A DNA stretch of 64,000 nucleotides from Escherichia coli (lineage in GTDB: Bacteria > Pseudomonadota > Gammaproteobacteria > Enterobacterales > Enterobacteriaceae): the NCBI RefSeq assembly GCF_003790525.1, contig NZ_CP033635.1. The stretch is one strand, 5' to 3'. The notes beneath the pieces were generated by a model. It did not search any database, was not told the origin of the DNA, and worked only from the letters and a program-made list of their open reading frames with translations. The position numbers were made by a program, and so were the translations under genes. Positions 43,651 through 52,603 of this stretch are shown piece after piece (positions within the stretch are counted from its first letter, which is position 1; every line of letters starts with the position of its first letter).

Positions 43651-45078
43651 CTAGCGCGACTGCTGATTATATTCATCATCGCGTTGATAAGCTTCATCAT
43701 TCGGCTGCTCCGGAACCGACCGCAGTCGATACTCTTCATCCTGGCTCACCGCTTGTTCAGCCAAATCCGGATTAATCTCGCGTTTAATTTCTACCCCTAA
43801 ACCGCGAAACGCTTCTGCCTGCGCCAGCACATTTCCGCGACCTGAAGAGAGTTTTTTCATTGCCTGGCGGTAGTTATCCTGCGCTTTGTCGAGACTTTGA
43901 CCAATCGCTGACATGTCATCGACGAACAAACGCATCTTGTCGTACAGCTTGCTGGCACGATCGGCGATTTGCTGGGCGTTGCGGCTTTGATGCTCATAAC
44001 GCCACAGGTTGGCGATAGTGCGCAGCGCCACCAGCAGCGTAGTCGGGCTAACCAGCATGATATTGTTTTTCAACGCTTCGGTGATCAGCTCCGGCTGGCG
44101 GTCAAGCGCCAGTAAAAAAGCGGGTTCAACGGGAATAAACATCAGAACGTAATCCAGGGTTCGCAGCCCCGGCAGCTGTTGATAATCTTTGCGTCCCAGC
44201 AAACGGATATGGTTACGCACCGACGCGATATGTTCCTGTAGCGCGCTTTCGCGGGTGTAGTCATCTTCGGCGTTGAAATAGCGTTCATAGGCGACCAGCG
44301 TCATTTTGGCGTCGATCACCACATCTTTTCCCTGCGGCAACCGCACGATGACATCCGGCTGCATCCGCGAGCGGGCGTCATTTTCGATGCTGACCTGGGT
44401 TTCATATTCATACCCTTCACGCAGACCGGAAGCCTCCAGCACCCGCGTCAATACTACCTCGCCCCAGTTGCCCTGGGTTTTATTGTCGCCTTTCAGCGCA
44501 CGCGTCAGGTTGATCGCTTCCTGGGCCATCTGGGCGTTGAGTTGCTGGAGGTTGCGGATTTCGTGAGTCAGGGTATGACGTTCTTGGGCTTCTTTACCAA
44601 AGCTGTCCTGGACCTGACGGCGGAAACCGTCCAGTTGTTCACGTAGCGGCGACAACAGGCTGTTCAGGCTCTGACGGTTTTGCTCATCAACCCGGCGATT
44701 GCTGTGCTCAAAAATACGGTTGGCGAGGTTTTCAAACTGCTCACTGAGGCGCTGCTCGCTGTTAATCATCTGGCGAATTTTATCGTCAGCATGTTGCTGT
44801 GCAGCTTCCATCCGCGTGGTTACTTCACGCAGATCGGCCTCCAGAGAGGTGTTAATACTTTGCAGGCTGCGCACTTCGTTATTGAGTAACTCGCACTCAG
44901 CGCGCCAGTGCTCGCTTTGAGTAATTTGTTGTTTTGCCGCGCTTAACTCCGCGACCATCTCTTCACGTTCAGCTAATTGCTCGGCTTTTTGCTGCGCATG
45001 TTGATAACTGGCAAACAGCCAGCCAATTGCCACACCCACCAATGCAATAACTGCGTAAACCATGATTGAGAAATCCAC
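43651..45078 (-). CDS. rmuC: DNA recombination protein RmuC
   Basis: 475-aa ORF with N-terminal TM segment and long coiled-coil region. Confidence 0.9.
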   Translation of the reverse strand: MDFSIMVYAVIALVGVAIGWLFASYQHAQQKAEQLAEREEMVAELSAAKQQITQSEHWRAECELLNNEVRSLQSINTSLEADLREVTTRMEAAQQHADDKIRQMINSEQRLSEQFENLANRIFEHSNRRVDEQNRQSLNSLLSPLREQLDGFRRQVQDSFGKEAQERHTLTHEIRNLQQLNAQMAQEAINLTRALKGDNKTQGNWGEVVLTRVLEASGLREGYEYETQVSIENDARSRMQPDVIVRLPQGKDVVIDAKMTLVAYERYFNAEDDYTRESALQEHIASVRNHIRLLGRKDYQQLPGLRTLDYVLMFIPVEPAFLLALDRQPELITEALKNNIMLVSPTTLLVALRTIANLWRYEHQSRNAQQIADRASKLYDKMRLFVDDMSAIGQSLDKAQDNYRQAMKKLSSGRGNVLAQAEAFRGLGVEIKREINPDLAEQAVSQDEEYRLRSVPEQPNDEAYQRDDEYNQQSR

Positions 45079-45196
45079 AACGCCTCCTGACGCAACAACT
45101 TACCCGCACAAAATAGAATTGTGCTGTACAAACGTCCAGTTTGAAAGAAGTTTCCTGCGAGGCGCTACGCAAAACGATCGTTAATTTTCATTATTT

Positions 45197-45234
45197 TATC
45201 CCACAATATGAGATGGAGTTTATATTGTGGGATA
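45197..45234. promoter_or_regulatory. Perfect 13-bp inverted repeat, candidate operator in the rmuC / IclR-operon intergenic region
   Basis: tatcccacaatat (45197-45209) and atattgtgggata (45222-45234) are exact reverse complements separated by 12 bp, about 60 bp upstream of the IclR-family gene start. Confidence 0.5.
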
Positions 45235-45294
45235 TATCACCTTTTCCCCACGTCATTATGTGGAACACTTCAGCAATATCATCAGGAGAAACGT

Positions 45295-46062
45295 ATGGCA
45301 GAAACCTCTTCAACCACCGCAGGCGCACAAACGTTATTACGTGGACTGGCGGTTCTTAATGCTGTTTATAACGGCTGCCATGACCTAAAAAGTATCGGCG
45401 AGTTCACCGGCACGACCCGGAGCACAACCCATCGTTTAGTCACCGTTCTGGTGGAACAACGCTACCTGCGCCATGTCCCAACGCAGGGCTACCAACTGGG
45501 TGCCAAACTGATCGAATTCGGTGCCAGAGCACTGGAAAGCACCTCGCTGTACGAAATTGCCCAGCCCGTTTTGCAACGCCTTGCCCGTTACACCCTGGAC
45601 ACCGTGCATCTGGGGATCGTTGAAGGCGACGAAGTGCTGTATCTGGAGAAGATCAACAGTCAGCGCGGGCTGGAAATGCGCTCACGCCCAGGCCATCGCA
45701 TGCCACTGGCAATCACCGGCATCGGCAAAGCATTGATACTCAACCGAACAGAAGAAGAGTGGCGCACGCTGTTTAAGACCTGTGGTGATGAAACAAAACT
45801 GGGCGCATTTATTCAGAACATGCGTCGTTATGCCGCCAGTGGTTTTGCTTTTGATCTGGAAGAGAACGAGCCGACTATCCGTTGCGTTGCAGCGCCGGTT
45901 TACAACGCCCGGGATGAAATTGTGGCGGCTATTTCTGTCGCCAGTACCACCACGTATATGTCGCTGGCGCGTCTGGAAGAACTGGCACCTTACGTCAAAT
46001 CCTGTGCAGAAGAGATATCCGCTGAACTGGGCTGGGGTAAGCACGTCCGCAAAGATAAATAA
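45295..46062 (+). CDS. IclR-family transcriptional regulator
   Basis: ATG at 45295 with aggag RBS; N-terminal HTH region (LKSIGEFTGTTRSTTHRLVTVL) and C-terminal IclR effector-like domain. Not in the K-12 order as recalled. Confidence 0.8.
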   Translation: MAETSSTTAGAQTLLRGLAVLNAVYNGCHDLKSIGEFTGTTRSTTHRLVTVLVEQRYLRHVPTQGYQLGAKLIEFGARALESTSLYEIAQPVLQRLARYTLDTVHLGIVEGDEVLYLEKINSQRGLEMRSRPGHRMPLAITGIGKALILNRTEEEWRTLFKTCGDETKLGAFIQNMRRYAASGFAFDLEENEPTIRCVAAPVYNARDEIVAAISVASTTTYMSLARLEELAPYVKSCAEEISAELGWGKHVRKDK

Positions 46063-46085
46063 ACCATGATTAAAGGAAACGACTA

Positions 46086-47090
46086 ATGCCGGGAGCACCC
46101 TCATTTATTGCCCTGGACTGGGGAACGTCATCGCTTCGGGCATGGCGTTTTGGCGAATCACCAAATCCACAAGAAAAACGTGAATTCCCCTGGGGGATCA
46201 TGAAATTACCCTCCCAGGCAGCAACACGTGAGGACGCTTTCCACGATACGTTTTTACGTGTCTGCGGCGACTGGCTGGCACAAACCCCATGCCCGGTACT
46301 GGCTTGCGGCATGCTCGGCAGTGCGCAAGGGTGGCAACCAGCAGCTTATTTACCTTGCCCGGTCACTCTCGAGGGTCTGGCGAAGCAGTTGACGCCAGTT
46401 ATCCACCAGCAGCAGACAATGCTGCACATCATTCCTGGCGTGATTAAAGAAGGTGAAATGCCCGAAGTGATGCGTGGCGAAGAGACACAAATCTTCGGTG
46501 CTATCTCGATGGAACCGGCCCTGCAAAACGCGATCCATCAGGGTATGCCAGTGCTGATAGGCTTACCCGGCACACATGCGAAATGGGCAGTAGTTGAAAA
46601 CAACACCATTACCGATTTCCGAACCTTTATGACGGGCGAGTTATTTGATGTTTTATCCCGCCATTCGATTCTCGGTGCCACCATGCATCCTGGAGATGAA
46701 CCGCACTGGGATGCCTTCACCCACGGGCTGACAGCAGCACAAGAGCATCATCAGACCGGATTATTATCGACGCTGTTTTCGACCCGTTCGCGCCTGCTGA
46801 CCAGTAATCTTACGTCGTCCTCGCAGGGGGATTACCTTTCCGGATTACTGATAGGCCATGAATTATGCGGTCTGGCATCCAGTTTGCTACGTGATTTACC
46901 CGCCACAACACCGATCGCCTTAATCGGTAGCGCAAATCTGAACAGCCGCTATTCACAAGCATTCAGCCACGTTTTTCCCGACAGACAGATACACGCCATT
47001 CCTAATGCCACTGAACAGGGATTATGGCGAATCGCCCACGCTGCCGGGTTACTGTCCACCAACGCCAGGGAATGTACCCATGCCATTTAA
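46086..47090 (+). CDS. 2-dehydro-3-deoxygalactonokinase (DgoK)-family sugar-acid kinase
   Basis: 334-aa ORF with DgoK-family signatures IALDWGTSSLRAW, VMRGEETQIFG, PGTHAKW, FRTFMTGELF. Confidence 0.8.
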   Translation: MPGAPSFIALDWGTSSLRAWRFGESPNPQEKREFPWGIMKLPSQAATREDAFHDTFLRVCGDWLAQTPCPVLACGMLGSAQGWQPAAYLPCPVTLEGLAKQLTPVIHQQQTMLHIIPGVIKEGEMPEVMRGEETQIFGAISMEPALQNAIHQGMPVLIGLPGTHAKWAVVENNTITDFRTFMTGELFDVLSRHSILGATMHPGDEPHWDAFTHGLTAAQEHHQTGLLSTLFSTRSRLLTSNLTSSSQGDYLSGLLIGHELCGLASSLLRDLPATTPIALIGSANLNSRYSQAFSHVFPDRQIHAIPNATEQGLWRIAHAAGLLSTNARECTHAI

Positions 47091-47709
47091 GACGCTTTTG
47101 CAAAAAACCGGGTTAGTCGCCATTTTACGCGGCGTGAAACCGGATGAGATTGTCGCCATCGGTGAAAAACTGTACGCCGCCGGATTCCGCCTGATTGAGA
47201 TTCCTATGAACTCGCCGGAGGCGTTGCAAAGTATCAGTTTACTGCGCGACGCCCTGCCTAAGGATTGCCTGGTCGGAGCCGGAACTGTGCTTTCGGTAGA
47301 GCAGGTGGTTGCGGTTAAAGAGGCTGGGGGCCAGATTATCGTGATGCCGCATTGCGATACTGCGGTGATCCGTCGCGCCCGTGCGCTGGGTATGTATTGT
47401 GCGCCTGGCGTCGCCACGCCCACCGAAGCCTTTGCTGCCATTGAACATGGTGCTAATGCCATCAAGCTGTTCCCGGCTGAACAAATTACGCCAGAAGTTA
47501 CCAAAGCCTGGCGTGCGGTTATTCCACAATCCGTTCCGATGTTACCGGTTGGCGGTATCACACCGGAAACCATGGCGCGTTATCTGAGCCACGGCGCAAA
47601 CGGCTTTGGCCTCGGTTCTGCGCTATATCACCCCGGCATGACGCCAGAGCAAGTCTATGAAAATGCAGTACTGTTTATGAACGCATGGAACAATTTAAAT
47701 AGCAACTAA
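47080..47709 (+). CDS. KDPG/KDPGal-type class I aldolase (DgoA/Eda family)
   Basis: ATG at 47080 (MPFKTLLQKTGLVAILRGVKPDEI...); motifs AILRG, IEIPMNSP, GAGTVL, CAPGVATPTEAF, GGITPE resemble DgoA. Overlaps the kinase by 11 nt. Confidence 0.8.
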   Translation: MPFKTLLQKTGLVAILRGVKPDEIVAIGEKLYAAGFRLIEIPMNSPEALQSISLLRDALPKDCLVGAGTVLSVEQVVAVKEAGGQIIVMPHCDTAVIRRARALGMYCAPGVATPTEAFAAIEHGANAIKLFPAEQITPEVTKAWRAVIPQSVPMLPVGGITPETMARYLSHGANGFGLGSALYHPGMTPEQVYENAVLFMNAWNNLNSN

Positions 47710-47733
47710 CTGATAAATAAGGATATAAAAGCA

Positions 47734-48708
47734 ATGATAAAACATCTTACCTTACCGAAAAAAATGGCTGCAATGGTACTTCTTGCAGGCGCTGCCCTCA
47801 GCATTGCGCCTGTACAGGCAGCCTCCTACCCAACCAAACAGATCGAGTTAGTCGTTCCCTACGCTGCCGGAGGCGGTACGGATCTGGTTGCCCGTGCCTT
47901 TGCTGATGCCGCCAAAAACCATTTACCCGTCAGCATCGGGGTTATCAATAAACCTGGCGGAGGCGGTGCTATCGGCCTGAGTGAAATCGCCGCTGCCCGC
48001 CCTGGCGGTTACAAAATTGGTTTAGGCACGGTTGAACTGACCACCCTTCCCAGCCTCGGAATGGTGCGTTTTAAAACCAGCGATTTTAAACCCATTGCCC
48101 GTCTAAACGCGGATCCGGCTGCTATCACCGTCCGTTCTGATGCGCCGTGGAATAGCTATGAAGAATTTATGACTTACGCCAAAGCGAATCCCGGAAAAGT
48201 ACGCATTGGTAACTCAGGCACCGGAGCTATCTGGCATCTGGCGGCAGCTGCACTGGAAGACAAAACGGGTGCGAAGTTTTCTCATGTCCCGTATGACGGC
48301 GCAGCCCCTGCCATTACAGGCCTGTTAGGCGGGCATATTGAAGCGGTTTCCGTAAGCCCAGGAGAAGTTATCAACCATGTGAAAGGCGGCAAGCTGAAGA
48401 CACTGGTAGTGATGGCGGATGAGCGAATGAAAACCATGCCTGACGTCCCGACGTTAAAAGAGAAAGGCGTTGATCTCTCCATCGGCACCTGGCGCGGCCT
48501 GATTGTGTCGCAAAAAACGCCGCAGGATGTGGTGGATGTTCTGGCAAAGGCAGCAAAAGAGACGGCTGAAGAGCCTGCATTCCAGGATGCACTGCAAAAG
48601 TTGAATCTCAACTATGCATGGCTTGACGCTGCCAGCTTCCAGACCCAAATCAGCGAACAGGAAAAGTACTTTGACGAGTTGCTGACTCGCCTGGGCCTGA
48701 AAAAATAA
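47734..48708 (+). CDS. tctC: Tripartite tricarboxylate transporter periplasmic substrate-binding protein (TctC/Bug family)
   Basis: 324-aa ORF with signal peptide (MAAMVLLAGAALSIAPVQAAS) and Bug/TctC-like sequence; aggat RBS. Confidence 0.8.
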   Translation: MIKHLTLPKKMAAMVLLAGAALSIAPVQAASYPTKQIELVVPYAAGGGTDLVARAFADAAKNHLPVSIGVINKPGGGGAIGLSEIAAARPGGYKIGLGTVELTTLPSLGMVRFKTSDFKPIARLNADPAAITVRSDAPWNSYEEFMTYAKANPGKVRIGNSGTGAIWHLAAAALEDKTGAKFSHVPYDGAAPAITGLLGGHIEAVSVSPGEVINHVKGGKLKTLVVMADERMKTMPDVPTLKEKGVDLSIGTWRGLIVSQKTPQDVVDVLAKAAKETAEEPAFQDALQKLNLNYAWLDAASFQTQISEQEKYFDELLTRLGLKK

Positions 48709-48724
48709 ACCTGAGGTACGGTTG

Positions 48725-49231
48725 ATGAACACAAAACAGTCTGTTGCTCAACTCGCCGTACCGCACCGCAAGCGCCTTTCATCAACGATGGTGGTGGCGC
48801 TGTTACTTTGTGTGGTTGCTGGCGCGGTGATGATTAATGCCGCTGATTTTCCAGCAACTGCCATTGAAACGGATCCCGGTGCAAGTGCCTTCCCTACCTT
48901 CTATGCCTGTGCCCTGATTGTGCTCGCTGTCTTGCTGGTGATACGCGATCTTTTGCAGGCAAAACCAGCCTCTTGCGCCAACGCACAGGAAAAACCGGCA
49001 TTCAGGAAAACGGCAACAGGAATTGCGGCAACCGCGTTTTATATTGTGACGATGAGCTACTGCGGTTATCTCATTACTACTCCTGTTTTCCTCATCGTCA
49101 TTATGACGTTGATGGGCTACAGGCGATGGGTACTCACACCGGGTATTGCGCTGCTGTTAACGGCAATCCTCTGGTTGCTGTTTGTCGAAGCGTTACAGGT
49201 GCCATTGCCTGTCGGCACATTTTTCGAATAA
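48725..49231 (+). CDS. tctB: Tripartite tricarboxylate transporter small membrane subunit (TctB family)
   Basis: About 168 aa, four predicted hydrophobic segments; sits between TctC-like and TctA-like genes. Start at ATG 48725 (TTG 48722 is an alternative). Confidence 0.65.
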   Translation: MNTKQSVAQLAVPHRKRLSSTMVVALLLCVVAGAVMINAADFPATAIETDPGASAFPTFYACALIVLAVLLVIRDLLQAKPASCANAQEKPAFRKTATGIAATAFYIVTMSYCGYLITTPVFLIVIMTLMGYRRWVLTPGIALLLTAILWLLFVEALQVPLPVGTFFE

Positions 49232-49243
49232 CAGGGGCCAGCA

Positions 49244-50734
49244 ATGTTTGAAAGTGAACTTTTAACTCAGGGTTTTTCGACATTACTCAATAATCCTCAG
49301 GCGCTGCTGTTTGCCACTTTTGGGGTGATGCTGGGTATTGTGATTGGCGCTTTGCCTGGTCTGACAGCGACCATGGGTGTGGCGATTTTGCTGCCTTTCA
49401 CCTACGGCATGGAGCCTGTTTCTGGCTTGTTGATGATTTGCGGCGTCTTTTTTGGTGGCGTCTACGGTGGTTCTATCACCGCAATTTTGCTCAAAATTCC
49501 CGGAACGCCTGCCGCCGCAGCCACCGCTATTGATGGTTATGAGCTGACGAAACAGGGAAAAGCAGGGCTGGCATTGAGTGCCGCCACGTTCTCTTCCTTT
49601 AGTGGCGGAACGCTCAGCATTATCGTGCTGATGTTTCTCTCTCCGGTACTTGCCAGTTGGGCGCTGAAATTTAGTGCCTCGGAGTCCTTCGCCCTGGCAA
49701 CCTTCGGACTGAGCATTATTGCCAGTATTTCCGGTGAGTCACTGATTAAAGGGCTGATTGCCGGGGTTGGCGGATTGCTGATCGCAACGATAGGCCTTGA
49801 TCCAATGGGCGGTTTTCCACGGTTTACAGGTGGATTTGTGGAGCTGATGAATGTGCCATTTATCCCGGTGATGATTGGTTTATTTGCTGCTTCAGAAGCA
49901 TTCCGCTCTATGGAGCAAAACCAGCAAATTCGTCAGGGGGCGAAGGTGGCTATCGGCAGTCTGTTACTGCCCTGGCAAACACTACGCCGCATTGCATTAA
50001 CCATTTTGCGCTCATCAGGATTAGGGGTTTTTATCGGCATGATCCCCGGTGCGGGGGCGGATATTGCAGCTTTTGTTGCCTATAACGAAACTCGTCGTTT
50101 CAGTAAGACACCAGAAAACTTTGGTAAGGGTGAAATTAAAGCTGTGGCCTCCTGTGAGGCAGGCGCGAATGGCTGCACCGGTGGCGCATTGTTACCTATG
50201 CTGACGCTGGGGATCCCTGGCGATGCGGTAACCGCCATCATGCTGGGCGCGTTAACGTTACAGGGAATGCAACCAGGCCCGCTGATGTTTACCGACCACG
50301 GCGATATGGTTTATACACTGTTTGTCGGCATGATCTTCTGTTACTTCATGCTACTAGTTCTTGGACTGCTCTCTTTGAAAGTCATCGGTAATGTGGTGAA
50401 AATTCCCGGCAATATTCTCACACCGATGATCCTCGCACTTTGTGTGGTCGGGACTTATGCGTTGAACAATAGCCTGTTTGATGTTGGCATTATGCTGATT
50501 GCAGGCGTGGTGGGCTATTTCATGCAGAAAGGAGGATATCCGGCATCACCCGTAGTGCTGGCATTGATTATGGGGCCAATGGCGGAAAGTAATTTTCGCC
50601 GTGCGCTGTCGCTTTCTGGTGGGTCACTCGACTTTCTGTATACCCGACCGATAACTCTGGCATTGCTGACTCTGGCAGCCTTTACGCTACTGACGCCAAT
50701 AATCCGCAAAATAATGCGTTTACGGCGTCAATAA
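49244..50734 (+). CDS. tctA: Tripartite tricarboxylate transporter large permease (TctA family)
   Basis: 496-aa polytopic membrane protein with the duplicated TctA/DUF112-type glycine-rich architecture (e.g. GALPGLTATMG, GMIPGAGADIAAF). Confidence 0.8.
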   Translation: MFESELLTQGFSTLLNNPQALLFATFGVMLGIVIGALPGLTATMGVAILLPFTYGMEPVSGLLMICGVFFGGVYGGSITAILLKIPGTPAAAATAIDGYELTKQGKAGLALSAATFSSFSGGTLSIIVLMFLSPVLASWALKFSASESFALATFGLSIIASISGESLIKGLIAGVGGLLIATIGLDPMGGFPRFTGGFVELMNVPFIPVMIGLFAASEAFRSMEQNQQIRQGAKVAIGSLLLPWQTLRRIALTILRSSGLGVFIGMIPGAGADIAAFVAYNETRRFSKTPENFGKGEIKAVASCEAGANGCTGGALLPMLTLGIPGDAVTAIMLGALTLQGMQPGPLMFTDHGDMVYTLFVGMIFCYFMLLVLGLLSLKVIGNVVKIPGNILTPMILALCVVGTYALNNSLFDVGIMLIAGVVGYFMQKGGYPASPVVLALIMGPMAESNFRRALSLSGGSLDFLYTRPITLALLTLAAFTLLTPIIRKIMRLRRQ

Positions 50735-50742
50735 CTGATATC

Positions 50743-50769
50743 GCTCCCCGAAGTTGGGGAGCGTTTTTT
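50743..50769. terminator. Bidirectional terminator between convergent tctA and udp
   Basis: Hairpin gctccccgaagttggggagc followed by a T-run. Confidence 0.65.
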
Positions 50770-51532
50770 ATTTCAGCAGACGACGCGCCGCTTCCACCAC
50801 GATTTTCACCGCATGGCTTTCGGTTTGTTTCATCGTCTCAGCATTCGGGATCTCTTGCTGGGTGCGGTTAACGATAACCCCCGCTACCATACCGGCACGC
50901 AGGCCCTGACTTGCACACATGGTCAGCAGGGTTGCAGATTCCATTTCATAGTTCATTACGCCCATCGCCTGCCACTCTTCCATAGAACCTTTAAAGTGAC
51001 GAACTACGCGACCAGAGTAAGTATCGTAACGTTCCTGACCCGGGTAGAAGGTATCAGAAGAAGCCGTCACACCAACGTGAGTGGTGGCACCAATTGACTT
51101 CGCCGCTTCAACCAGCGCAGTCGTACATTCGAAATCAGCGACAGCCGGGAATTCCAGCGGTGCGAAGTGCAGGCTCGCACCATCCAGACGAACAGACGCC
51201 GTGGTAACCAGGACATCGCCAACATTAATATGCGGCTGAATAGCGCCTGTTGTGCCGATACGCAGGAAGGTGCGAATGCCCAGCTGTGCCAGCTCTTCAA
51301 CAGCAATAGAGGTAGACGGGCCGCCGATACCGGTAGAGCAGACGATAACAGGTTTACCATCCAGCTCTGCACGCCAGGTGGTGAATTCGCGATGAGATGC
51401 CAGCTTAACCGGCTTATCCATCAGCGCGGCGATCTTTTCCACACGATCCGGGTCGCCAGGGACGATGGCAAGCGTAGCCCCTTGTAAATCGTTTTTAGTG
51501 AGGCCGAGATGAAAAACATCAGACTTGGACAT
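50768..51532 (-). CDS. udp: Uridine phosphorylase
   Basis: Start taken at [31 protein letters not shown] (253 aa). Confidence 0.93.
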
Positions 51533-51654: not shown

Positions 51655-51690
51655 AAAAGTGATGCAAATCACATAAATCACTCTTCATTC
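51655..51690. promoter_or_regulatory. CRP/CytR-type operator region of the udp promoter
   Basis: Minus-strand tgtgatttgcatcact resembles the CRP half-site consensus TGTGA-N6-TCACA; a second gtgat-containing repeat is adjacent. Confidence 0.5.
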
Positions 51691-51793: not shown

Positions 51794-52603
51794 ATGGCAA
51801 CAACACAACAATCTGGATTTGCACCTGCTGCATCGCCTCTCGCTTCGACCATCGTTCAGACTCCGGACGACGCGATTGTGGCGGGCTTCACCTCTATCCC
51901 TTCACAAGGGGATAACATGCCTGCTTACCATGCCAGACCAAGGCAAAGCGATGGCCCACTGCCAGTGGTCATTGTAGTGCAGGAAATTTTTGGCGTGCAT
52001 GAACATATCCGCGATATTTGTCGCCGTCTGGCGCTGGAGGGGTATCTGGCTATCGCACCTGAACTTTACTTCCGCGAAGGCGATCCGAATGATTTTGCCG
52101 ATATCCCTACGCTGCTTAGCGGTCTGGTAGCAAAAGTGCCTGACTCGCAGGTGCTGGCCGATCTCGATCATGTCGCCAGTTGGGCTTCCCGCAACGGCGG
52201 CGATGTTCATCGTTTAATGATCACCGGATTCTGCTGGGGTGGACGTATCACCTGGCTGTATGCCGCGCATAATCCACAACTGAAAGCAGCGGTGGCATGG
52301 TACGGCAAATTAACCGGCGATAAGACGCTGAATTCACCGAAACAACCTGTTGATATCGCAACCGATCTTAACGCGCCGGTTCTCGGCTTATATGGTGGTC
52401 AGGATAACAGCATTCCGCAAGAGAGTGTGGAAACGATGCGCCAGGCGCTGCGGGCAGCAAACGCGAAAGCAGAGATTATCGTGTACCCGGATGCAGGGCA
52501 TGCGTTCAACGCCGATTATCGTCCGAGCTATCATGCCGAGTCTGCGAAAGACGGCTGGCAGCGAATGTTGGAATGGTTTACACAGTATGGTGTTAAAAAG
52601 TAA
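51794..52603 (+). CDS. ysgA: Dienelactone-hydrolase-family protein
   Basis: Start taken at MATTQQSGFAPAASPLASTIVQT; alpha/beta hydrolase with CWGG nucleophile elbow. Confidence 0.85.
   Translation: MATTQQSGFAPAASPLASTIVQTPDDAIVAGFTSIPSQGDNMPAYHARPRQSDGPLPVVIVVQEIFGVHEHIRDICRRLALEGYLAIAPELYFREGDPNDFADIPTLLSGLVAKVPDSQVLADLDHVASWASRNGGDVHRLMITGFCWGGRITWLYAAHNPQLKAAVAWYGKLTGDKTLNSPKQPVDIATDLNAPVLGLYGGQDNSIPQESVETMRQALRAANAKAEIIVYPDAGHAFNADYRPSYHAESAKDGWQRMLEWFTQYGVKK

What the first reader, a model, noticed from the sequence alone, without database searches (positions are those of the whole stretch)
45197..45234. Perfect 13-bp inverted repeat in the rmuC / IclR-operon intergenic region (candidate operator)
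tatcccacaatat-N12-atattgtgggata is an exact palindromic pair about 60 bp upstream of the IclR-family regulator gene. IclR regulators usually bind palindromic operators that overlap their own or target promoters. Because the site sits between divergent rmuC and the island operon, it could also place rmuC expression under island control.
Basis: seen in the sequence. Interest (0 to 1): 0.4.

Follow-up and report, generated by a model that had tools for sequence, protein, structure and literature searches.

The report
Operator of an IclR-type sugar-acid regulator
The perfect 13-bp inverted repeat is real. It is most likely the DNA binding site (two adjacent 15-bp boxes) of the IclR-family regulator encoded next to it, because the same boxes occur upstream of that regulator's relatives from Escherichia to Burkholderia; this is an ordinary regulatory element, now better defined.

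Summary
The repeat is exactly as described: arms at 45197-45209 and 45222-45234, a 12-nt spacer, and 60 nt from the right arm to the regulator's ATG at 45295. It is unlikely by chance.

The window is E. coli SMS-3-5. The repeat lies about 22 nt inside a 5.6-kb segment (iclR-dgoK-dgoA-tctCBA) that 1456 of 5426 complete E. coli genomes carry between rmuC and udp.

A 15-bp matrix built only from non-Escherichia orthologous loci puts its two best hits in the 64-kb window on the two arms (18.3 and 16.4 bits; next best 10.9). In 76 of 80 orthologous loci the best hit lies within 600 bp upstream of the regulator. Most show two boxes 19-20 bp apart.

The repeat is therefore the outer part of a 34-bp bipartite operator: box A 45199-45213, gap, box B 45218-45232. 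This fits a dimer of dimers. The perfect 13/13 symmetry is allele-specific and uncompensated substitutions occur, so a conserved RNA hairpin or terminator is not supported.

No evidence supports control of rmuC, which has its own LexA-type promoter region in core DNA. Binding, effector and sign of regulation are inferred, not shown.

The parts
45197..45209 (.). Left arm of the perfect inverted repeat (TATCCCACAATAT)
45222..45234 (.). Right arm of the perfect inverted repeat (ATATTGTGGGATA)
45199..45213 (+). Box A, TCCCACAATATGAGA: the best hit in the 64-kb window (18.3 bits) to a 15-bp matrix built only from non-Escherichia orthologous loci
   Evidence: orthologous boxes
45214..45217 (.). 4-nt gap between the boxes (TGGA). 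It is the most variable part within Escherichia (TGAA, CTGA, CAGA). Most other genera have 5 nt here.
45218..45232 (-). Box B (plus strand GTTTATATTGTGGGA; read on the minus strand TCCCACAATATAAAC): second-best hit in the window (16.4 bits). Its inner half is weak.
45226..45240 (.). CRP-like site TGTGG-GATATA-TCACC (8 of 10 core positions of TGTGA-N6-TCACA; consensus recalled from memory). It overlaps box B and the right arm. The equivalent TGTG-N7-TCAC lies just after box B in the other enterobacterial loci. This is a candidate only.
45198..45226 (+). Best sigma-70-like candidate on the regulator's strand: -35 ATCCCA (45198-45203), 17-nt spacer, -10 TATATT (45221-45226). Both hexamers lie inside the boxes. 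The matrix was rough and the promoter is not verified.
45295..46062 (+). IclR-family regulator gene (255 aa; HTH_IclR and IclR_C domains), the presumed cognate binding protein
46086..50734 (+). Presumed co-transcribed target genes: dgoK-like kinase, KDPGal aldolase, TctC/TctB/TctA transporter. The gaps between genes are about 24 nt or less, or the genes overlap. No further box-like site was found in the island.
50742..50769 (+). Hairpin plus T-run at the island's right end (cgctcccc-gaagtt-ggggagcg-tttttt), abutting the udp stop codon
   Evidence: read from the sequence
45175..50773 (.). Segment absent from K-12, where about 47 bp holding the udp terminator lie instead. The repeat starts about 22 nt inside its left edge.
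45124..45139 (-). LexA-type box of rmuC in core DNA (minus strand CTGGACGTTTGTACAG). It overlaps the best minus-strand promoter candidate (-35 TGGACG 45138, -10 TATTTT 45115). It is not part of the operator and is listed as context for the rmuC claim.

Best explanation
The inverted repeat is the core of a 34-bp bipartite operator (45199-45232) for the IclR-family regulator encoded 60 nt downstream. That regulator is an IclR-type regulator of dgoK/dgoA (2-keto-3-deoxy-galactonate kinase and aldolase) gene clusters. Each 15-bp box is an imperfect palindrome (consensus about TCyCA-wTATA-TGrGA) that would take one regulator dimer. Two boxes set 19-20 bp centre to centre would take a dimer of dimers. 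In E. coli the two outer halves are strong and identical, which produces the perfect 13-bp repeat, while the inner halves are weaker (TGAGA, and GTTTA on the plus strand). The site overlaps the best promoter-like sequence for the iclR-dgoK-dgoA-tctCBA unit. The most likely mode is therefore repression, including autorepression, relieved by a sugar-acid effector. A CRP-like site overlaps box B, so catabolite control may be added. Shown here: the repeat, the regulator's family, conservation of the boxes upstream of orthologues across gamma- and beta-proteobacteria, and conservation of the recognition-helix residues. Inferred: binding itself, tetramer stoichiometry, repression rather than activation, the effector, and the promoter position.
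For: 1) A matrix built from 32 unique sites in non-Escherichia loci places its top two hits in the 64-kb window at 45199(+) and 45218(-), with 18.3 and 16.4 bits. The next best is 10.9; the background mean is -21 with sd 8.
2) In 76 of 80 orthologous loci (regulator 53-96% identical) the best hit in the roughly 8.7-kb locus lies within 600 bp upstream of the regulator. Column-permuted matrices give a mean of 10.8 and a maximum of 28.
3) A second box lies 19-20 bp from the first in Achromobacter, Bordetella, Collimonas, Burkholderia, Paraburkholderia, Caballeronia, Trinickia, Brenneria, Phytobacter, Pseudocitrobacter, Klebsiella huaxiensis and L087.
4) The site follows the dgo cluster through different gene orders. 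It lies between the regulator and divergent dgoK-dgoA-dgoD in Achromobacter, Bordetella and Collimonas. It lies upstream of the first gene in the two-regulator locus L091/L092, and not upstream of the terminal regulator copy.
5) The residues of the presumed recognition helix (S43 T44 H46 R47 L48) are invariant in an alignment of 15 orthologues.
6) Within Escherichia the substitutions fall in the gap, at matrix-variable positions, or outside the boxes, and they are not compensated.
7) The best plus-strand promoter candidate has both hexamers inside the boxes. In Paraburkholderia and Burkholderia the outer half of box 2 (TTGGAG) sits 17-18 nt before TACAAT (read from the sequences).
8) The protein has HTH_IclR and IclR_C domains. 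Its closest solved relatives are TM-IclR, KdgR and TtgV.
Against: There is no binding or expression data, and no published study of this regulator or its site was found. I chose the seed sites by eye after seeing the E. coli repeat, although the final matrix excluded all Escherichia sites. Many of the 80 loci are closely related, so the count of 76 of 80 overstates the number of independent observations. The matrix is AT-rich and the beta-proteobacterial genomes are GC-rich, which favours intergenic hits; the permuted-matrix control addresses this only in part. The Escherichia lineage and L087 have 19-bp rather than 20-bp box spacing, and box B has a poor inner half. The promoter could not be placed with confidence. 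A site overlapping a -35 element is compatible with activation as well as repression.
Confidence: 0.8

Rival explanations
1. The repeat acts as an RNA hairpin. It would be a terminator or attenuator, or a stabilising or regulatory stem-loop in the 5' leader of the island operon or in a transcript running towards rmuC.
For: The plus-strand RNA folds into a 16-pair stem at -20.3 kcal/mol (z = -5.3), and the minus strand folds at -16.1 kcal/mol. A promoter-like site on the minus strand (-35 at 45282, -10 at 45260) would transcribe through it.
Against: There is no T-run after the stem on either strand, and the scan makes no terminator call at the repeat. No Rfam family comes near its threshold. 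On the enterobacterial alignment only 68.9% of cells pair, against 65.6% in shuffles (37 of 500 shuffles reach the observed value), and the inner pairs are mostly broken. Changes within Escherichia are not compensated. In Brenneria the strong half-sites face the opposite way, which keeps the boxes but not the same stem. Any dyad-symmetric operator folds well when treated as RNA.
Confidence: 0.05
2. The conserved boxes are bound by a different factor, or mainly by CRP. The repeat would then be a composite or global-regulator site rather than the operator of the island's own regulator.
For: TGTGG-N6-TCACC at 45226-45240 matches 8 of 10 CRP core positions. An equivalent site follows box B in all enterobacterial loci examined. 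The same pattern also finds a site in the region upstream of udp, which I recall to be CRP-regulated.
Against: The CRP-like pattern covers only the right arm. It is absent as such from the beta-proteobacterial loci, where the two boxes are still conserved. The boxes' TCCCA/TGGGA cores are not CRP-like. The site co-occurs with the IclR-type gene in 76 of 80 loci. The distance to any plausible -10 does not fit the standard CRP positions (my own reading).
Confidence: 0.08
3. The repeat is a structural remnant of how the segment was acquired (a terminal inverted repeat, recombination site or MITE-like element) and has no regulatory role.
For: It lies only about 22 nt from the left junction with core DNA, and its perfect symmetry is unusual.
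Against: No copy or partner exists at the right junction or elsewhere in the window. There is one place per genome in E. coli. The same boxes occur upstream of orthologous regulators in genera where they are not at any junction. No integrase or transposase gene lies in the segment.
Confidence: 0.03
4. The operator is bidirectional and also controls rmuC.
For: rmuC is divergent, and the site is dyad-symmetric. The rmuC-regulator adjacency is kept in Escherichia, Klebsiella huaxiensis, Pseudocitrobacter and L087.
Against: The best rmuC promoter candidate and its LexA-type box lie in core DNA that is also present in K-12. The -35 element is about 75 bp, and the presumed start about 110 bp, from the centre of the repeat. 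rmuC/yigN is a listed LexA-regulated gene. In Phytobacter the same regulator and boxes sit next to ubiE rather than rmuC. No outward promoter-like site uses the left arm.
Confidence: 0.05

Closest known systems
Operators of characterised IclR-family regulators (E. coli IclR box and AllR, KdgR, PcaU/PobR sites)
   Same: The cognate protein has the HTH_IclR and IclR_C architecture. The site is an AT-centred palindrome of about 15 bp (7-1-7 layout), lies close to the regulator's own gene and overlaps promoter-like elements. From memory, the published IclR box TGGAAATNATTTCCA is also 15 bp.
   Different: The sequence is unrelated: the core is TCCCA...TGGGA rather than TGGAAA...TTTCCA (IclR/AllR) or the KdgR box as I recall them. 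The regulator scores far below the curated cut-offs of every named NCBIfam equivalog (best is BhcR, 143 bits against 350; KdgR 130 against 275). It is therefore a separate, uncharacterised subfamily.
TtgV-operator complex of Pseudomonas putida (PDB 2XRO): an IclR-family tetramer on a long operator
   Same: TtgV is a detectable homologue (2XRN/2XRO, E = 4e-11). From memory of the published structure, one tetramer covers a roughly 40-bp operator as a dimer of dimers and overlaps the promoter. That is the model proposed here for the 34-35 bp two-box site.
   Different: The box sequences are different. TtgV senses aromatic compounds and controls an efflux pump. Tetramer binding is inferred here only from the number and spacing of the boxes.
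GntR-type DgoR and its operator in the native E. coli dgoRKADT operon
   Same: It has an analogous role: a local regulator of 2-keto-3-deoxy-galactonate kinase and aldolase genes, with an inverted-repeat operator at the operon promoter and CRP input (recalled from the literature).
   Different: The protein family (GntR/FadR) and the operator sequence are different. The native operon also has a dehydratase (dgoD) and an MFS transporter (dgoT), whereas this segment has no dehydratase and uses a TctCBA transporter.
Predicted IclR-family 'GalR' with dgoK and a TTT transporter in Salinivirga fredricksonii (PMC5507952)
   Same: The same combination of gene types (IclR-family regulator, dgoK, TTT-family transporter), assigned by comparative genomics to galactonate-related catabolism.
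   Different: It is an alphaproteobacterium, orthology was not tested here, and no operator sequence from that paper was compared.

Membership tests
IclR-family regulator operator | An adjacent gene encodes a protein with an N-terminal HTH_IclR domain and a C-terminal IclR effector domain | tested here: met
   The clusters of nearest homologues, including the identical sequence, carry PF09339 and PF01614. NCBIfam hits are all IclR-family models. PDB relatives are 1MKM, 1YSP and 2XRN.
IclR-family regulator operator | A dyad-symmetric DNA site in the regulator's own or its target's upstream region | tested here: met
   A perfect 13-bp inverted repeat lies 60 nt upstream of the ATG. Each 15-bp box is itself an imperfect palindrome: positions 4/12 are C/G and 5/11 are A/T in 29-32 of 32 sites.
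IclR-family regulator operator | The site is conserved upstream of orthologous regulators or targets in other genomes (phylogenetic footprint) | tested here: met
   76 of 80 loci against a permuted-control maximum of 28. The cross-validated matrix finds the E. coli arms as its top two hits. Further enterobacterial loci agree.
IclR-family regulator operator | The site overlaps the regulated promoter | tested here: inconclusive
   The best plus-strand sigma-70 candidate lies inside the boxes (99.987th percentile of a rough matrix written from memory). The consensus scan called no plus-strand promoter, and no transcription start data are available.
IclR-family regulator operator | The regulator binds the site specifically and an effector modulates the binding | not testable with these tools
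   This needs EMSA or footprinting and reporter assays. No publication was found.
Intrinsic (Rho-independent) terminator | A G+C-rich stem directly followed by a T-run | tested here: not met
   The scan finds no terminator-like site at 45197-45234. The stem is A+T-rich and is followed by TATATCACC on the plus strand and AAAATAATG on the minus strand.
Known structured RNA (Rfam) | A match to a curated covariance model, or a stem supported by covariation | tested here: not met
   The best Rfam hits have E = 0.5-1 and about 20 bits, against gathering scores of 67-69. Pair counts are indistinguishable from shuffles.
CRP binding site | A match to TGTGA-N6-TCACA at a standard distance from a promoter | tested here: inconclusive
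   45226-45240 matches TGTG-N7-TCAC, and the equivalent site is conserved after box B in the enterobacterial loci. The pattern occurs 4 times in the window against 2 expected. No promoter at a standard CRP distance was identified.
Mobile-element terminal repeat or attachment site | Matching repeats at both ends of the inserted segment, or several copies in the genome | tested here: not met
   There is no second copy in the window with 1 mismatch or fewer, none at the right junction, and one place per E. coli genome.

The most novel reading that the evidence does not exclude
In the Escherichia lineage a 10-nt deletion has merged the regulator's box B with the neighbouring CRP-like site, so that both share the TGTG at 45226-45229. 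At the same time the two outer half-sites became a perfect 13-bp palindrome. This could make the IclR-type regulator and CRP mutually exclusive on the DNA: a compact competitive switch, unlike the side-by-side arrangement in Klebsiella, Pseudocitrobacter and Phytobacter. The symmetric site, divergent from the SOS gene rmuC, could also couple the two promoters.
Probability: 0.1. Interest if true: 0.5.

Novelty: new member of a known kind. Interest (0 to 1): 0.3.

Why it matters
The result gives a concrete, testable operator model for an uncharacterised IclR-type regulator. The model is a 15-bp box consensus, a two-box layout and exact coordinates. The regulator accompanies dgoK/dgoA sugar-acid genes in many beta- and gamma-proteobacteria, and it is present in about a quarter of complete E. 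coli genomes, including B2/F-type clinical isolates and BL21 derivatives. This would help annotate the regulon, guide EMSA and reporter experiments, and perhaps provide a new inducible promoter-regulator pair. It does not change the understanding of IclR-family regulation.

Tried and rejected
- Terminator: rejected. The repeat gets no terminator call and has no T-run.
- Known RNA family: nothing near threshold.
- Conserved hairpin: pair counts on the enterobacterial alignment are no better than shuffles.
- Other copies of the 13-mer in the window: none closer than 2 mismatches, and the count at 3 mismatches or fewer equals expectation (14 against 13). A lone box-like site at 20757 (10.9 bits) has no partner box and is probably chance.
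- Terminal repeat of a mobile element: no partner at the right junction and no mobility genes.
- Promoter placement: a hexamer matrix written from memory gave a candidate inside the boxes, but nothing decisive. I tried to fit the CRP-like site to class I or class II distances from each candidate -10 and none fitted.
- Simple search for CCCAC/GTGGG pentamers upstream of orthologues: not informative, because the beta-proteobacterial boxes read TCCCAA or TCTCA.
- Upstream of the terminal regulator copy in Citrobacter, Lelliottia and Serratia odorifera loci (L006, L007, L089): no box. The box sits at the head of that operon instead.
- Literature: six full-text searches found no experimental work on this regulator, its site or the E. 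coli segment. One comparative-genomics prediction of a similar gene set was found.

Full report
**1. Observation**

The sequence at 45197-45234 reads TATCCCACAATAT-GAGATGGAGTTT-ATATTGTGGGATA. The repeat finder reports it as a 13-nt, 100% complementary inverted repeat with 12 nt between the arms. It cannot be extended.

The window holds perfect inverted repeats of at least 13 nt with a spacer of 30 nt or less at only four places. First-order shuffles of the window give a mean of 0.1, and only 2 of 20000 shuffles of the 216-nt intergenic region contain one.

**2. Context**

- The window is 100% identical to E. coli SMS-3-5.
- The RefSeq annotation gives rmuC on the minus strand (43651-45078) and an IclR-family regulator on the plus strand (45295-46062).
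- Downstream of the regulator come a 2-dehydro-3-deoxygalactonokinase, a KDPGal aldolase and TctC/TctB/TctA (to 50734), then udp on the minus strand.
- Comparison with K-12 shows shared DNA upstream of rmuC up to about 45174 and again from about 50774.
- In K-12 about 47 bp holding the udp terminator lie in place of this 5.6-kb segment.
- The segment is present in 1456 of 5426 complete E. coli genomes, at one place each.
- The repeat starts about 22 nt inside its left edge and ends 60 nt before the regulator's ATG.

**3. Comparative evidence**

The regulator has many orthologues at 53-96% identity in Enterobacteriaceae, Brenneria, Burkholderiaceae, Achromobacter, Bordetella and Collimonas. The residues of the presumed recognition helix (S43 T44 H46 R47 L48) are invariant in a 15-sequence alignment.

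Reading the upstream regions showed a shared 15-bp box:

| Organism | Box 1 | Gap | Box 2 |
|---|---|---|---|
| Achromobacter, Bordetella | TCTCAAAATATAGAA | ttaaa | TCCCACATA[TC]AGGGA |
| Collimonas | TGTCAATATATGAAA | tcaaa | TCCCAATATATAGTA |
| Brenneria | TCCCTATATGTGGGA | cgatc | TCCCACATTATAGAG |
| Phytobacter | TCCCACATATTGGGA | tgacg | TTTTATATTATGGTA |

I then built a position matrix from 32 unique top sites of non-Escherichia loci only and scanned the 64-kb window.

- The two best hits are 45199(+) TCCCACAATATGAGA (18.3 bits) and 45218(-) TCCCACAATATAAAC (16.4 bits). These are the two arms of the repeat. The next best site scores 10.9.
- In 76 of 80 orthologous loci the best hit in the whole locus (about 8.7 kb, both strands) lies within 600 bp upstream of the regulator. 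Column-permuted matrices give a mean of 10.8 and a maximum of 28.
- In most Burkholderia, Paraburkholderia, Caballeronia and Trinickia loci a second, inverted box follows after 5 nt. An example is TCCCAATATATGAGC-gaccc-AATCACATATTGGAG.

Three further enterobacterial loci have the same divergent rmuC-regulator arrangement and show the same layout:

| Locus | Box A | Gap | Box B | Start-to-start spacing |
|---|---|---|---|---|
| L087 | TCCCACATATAGGGA | ttaa | GTTTATATTATGGGA | 19 bp |
| Pseudocitrobacter | TCCCACATATCGGGA | tgcca | TCTTATTTGTTGGGA | 20 bp |
| Klebsiella huaxiensis | TCCCACATATCGGGA | tgaca | TCTTATAAATAGGGA | 20 bp |

The site follows the dgo genes through different gene orders.

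- It lies between the regulator and divergent dgoK-dgoA-dgoD in Achromobacter, Bordetella and Collimonas.
- In the Citrobacter-type locus with two IclR genes it lies at the head of the operon, not before the terminal regulator copy.

**4. Anatomy in the window**

The operator is best described as follows.

- Box A: 45199-45213.
- Gap: 45214-45217 (TGGA).
- Box B: 45218-45232.

Within a box, positions 4/12 (C/G) and 5/11 (A/T) are nearly invariant and mutually complementary. Each box is therefore an imperfect palindrome of the TCyCA-N5-TGrGA type.

The 13-bp arms are the strong outer halves plus the AT core. The inner halves are weaker: TGAGA in box A, and GTTTA on the plus strand in box B.

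Four half-sites in two boxes about two helical turns apart fit a dimer of dimers. From established knowledge, IclR-family proteins are often tetramers, and TtgV, a detectable homologue, binds a long operator that way. The stoichiometry here is an inference.

**5. Variation within Escherichia**

- Of the 1456 genomes, 877 are at least 99% identical over 45176-45294 and 577 are 95-99% identical.
- Sampled members of the second group (AZ159, S37) have C to T at 45204, a matrix-variable position in the left arm, and G to A at 45216 in the gap.
- Strain 382634_2f has G to T at 45212.
- Escherichia sp. E1V33 changes the gap and the two outermost bases of the right arm.
- Strain SCPM-O-B-8794 has A to T at 45206.
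- HS-02 carries a decayed remnant with no annotated regulator gene.

None of these changes is compensated on the other arm. The perfect symmetry is allele-specific, while the box cores are kept.

**6. Rivals**

- *RNA hairpin.* As RNA the region folds well: -20.3 kcal/mol on the plus strand and -16.1 on the minus strand. However, there is no T-run and no terminator call at the repeat, and no Rfam match. On an alignment of eight enterobacterial loci only 68.9% of cells pair, against 65.6% in shuffles (37 of 500 shuffles reach it).
- *Mobile-element end.* This is not supported. There is no partner repeat, no mobility genes, and the same boxes occur away from any junction in other genera.

**7. 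Promoter and sign of regulation**

- A rough sigma-70 matrix (frequencies written from memory) puts the best plus-strand candidate at -35 ATCCCA (45198), a 17-nt spacer and -10 TATATT (45221). This is inside the boxes and at the 99.987th percentile of window scores. The stricter consensus scan called none.
- In Burkholderia and Paraburkholderia the outer half of box 2 (TTGGAG) lies 17-18 nt before TACAAT. In Achromobacter the reverse complement of box 1's outer half (TTGAGA) lies 17 nt before TAGAAT, facing dgoK. Both are read from the sequences.

Overlap with promoter elements favours repression by occlusion, as in sugar-acid regulators such as KdgR, but activation is not excluded.

**8. CRP-like site**

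- TGTGG-GATATA-TCACC at 45226-45240 matches 8 of 10 core CRP positions and overlaps box B.
- The other enterobacterial loci have TGTGC-N6-TCACC, or TGTGA-N6-TCATA, two or three bases after box B.
- The alignment shows a 10-nt deletion in Escherichia that brings the two elements together.
- The same pattern finds a site in the region upstream of udp, which I recall to be CRP-regulated (51659-51673).
- I could not fit the site to a standard CRP distance from any candidate -10, so it remains a candidate.

**9. rmuC**

- The best minus-strand promoter candidate (-35 TGGACG at 45138, -10 TATTTT at 45115) lies in core DNA shared with K-12.
- It overlaps a LexA-type box, CTGGACGTTTGTACAG on the minus strand, at 45139-45124.
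- rmuC (yigN) is listed among LexA-regulated SOS genes (PMC6590174).
- The centre of the operator is about 75 bp from that -35 element and about 110 bp from the presumed start.
- In Phytobacter the same regulator and boxes sit next to ubiE instead of rmuC.
- Nothing points to control of rmuC by the operator, although it is not excluded.

**10. Comparison with known systems and verdict**

The element works like the operators of IclR-family regulators and meets the features that could be tested here:

- a cognate IclR-type protein next to it;
- a dyad site;
- conservation upstream of orthologues.

Binding and effector response cannot be tested here. Its sequence is unrelated to the IclR/AllR and KdgR boxes as I recall them. 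The regulator falls well below the cut-offs of all named NCBIfam equivalogs. No experimental paper on it was found. The nearest published item is a comparative-genomics prediction of an IclR-type 'GalR' with dgoK and a TTT transporter (PMC5507952).

It is a new member of a known kind. Interest is modest (0.3).

Noticed in passing
window 45124-45139 (minus strand CTGGACGTTTGTACAG): A LexA-type SOS box overlaps the best promoter candidate of rmuC (-35 TGGACG at 45138, -10 TATTTT at 45115). It lies in core DNA that is also present in K-12. rmuC/yigN is listed as an SOS gene in PMC6590174.
   Followed up: partly
window 45226-45240; L087, L088, L090, L005, L091 just after box B: A conserved CRP-like TGTG-N7-TCAC site follows the operator in the enterobacterial loci. 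Escherichia has a 10-nt deletion that makes it overlap box B and the right arm.
   Followed up: partly
window 45175-50773: The segment has dgoK-like and dgoA-like genes and a TctCBA (TTT-family) transporter but no dehydratase (dgoD). The substrate may therefore be a 2-keto-3-deoxy sugar acid taken up directly, or the pathway may rely on the native dgoD. The substrate is unknown.
   Followed up: no
window 50764-50775 (right junction): The junction falls at the udp stop codon. Here udp ends ...CTG CTG AAA TAA, one codon longer than K-12's ...CTG CTG TAA. The T-run of the island's terminator hairpin abuts the udp stop, so the hairpin may terminate both convergent units.
   Followed up: partly
L087, L088 (Pseudocitrobacter), L090 (Klebsiella huaxiensis); L005 (Phytobacter): The same regulator-dgoK-dgoA cluster sits divergent from rmuC in several Enterobacteriaceae genera, and next to ubiE in Phytobacter. 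The E. coli 'island' may therefore be an old locus lost in many lineages rather than a recent gain.
   Followed up: partly
L091/L092, L006, L007: A paralogous locus in Citrobacter amalonaticus and Lelliottia-type genomes has two IclR-family genes flanking dgoK-dgoA-tctCBA. The operator boxes occur only at the head of the operon. The role of the second regulator is unknown.
   Followed up: partly
E. coli genomes: One of the 1456 copies is on a plasmid. BL21-RIPL carries the segment. Strain HS-02 carries a decayed remnant of the regulatory region with no annotated regulator gene.
   Followed up: no
window 20755-20771: A lone box-like sequence, AATCCCACAATAAAAGA (10.9 bits), lies about 10 nt upstream of an ORF that starts at 20782. 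It has no partner box and is probably chance.
   Followed up: partly
window 45248-45261 / 45331-45344: A second, imperfect inverted repeat (14 nt, 79% complementary, 69 nt apart) spans the regulator's start codon. Nothing suggests a function.
   Followed up: no
window 51659-51673 and 51877-51891: TGTG-N7-TCAC matches lie in and near the region upstream of udp. From memory, udp is CRP/CytR-regulated. I used the first match only as a positive control for the pattern.
   Followed up: no
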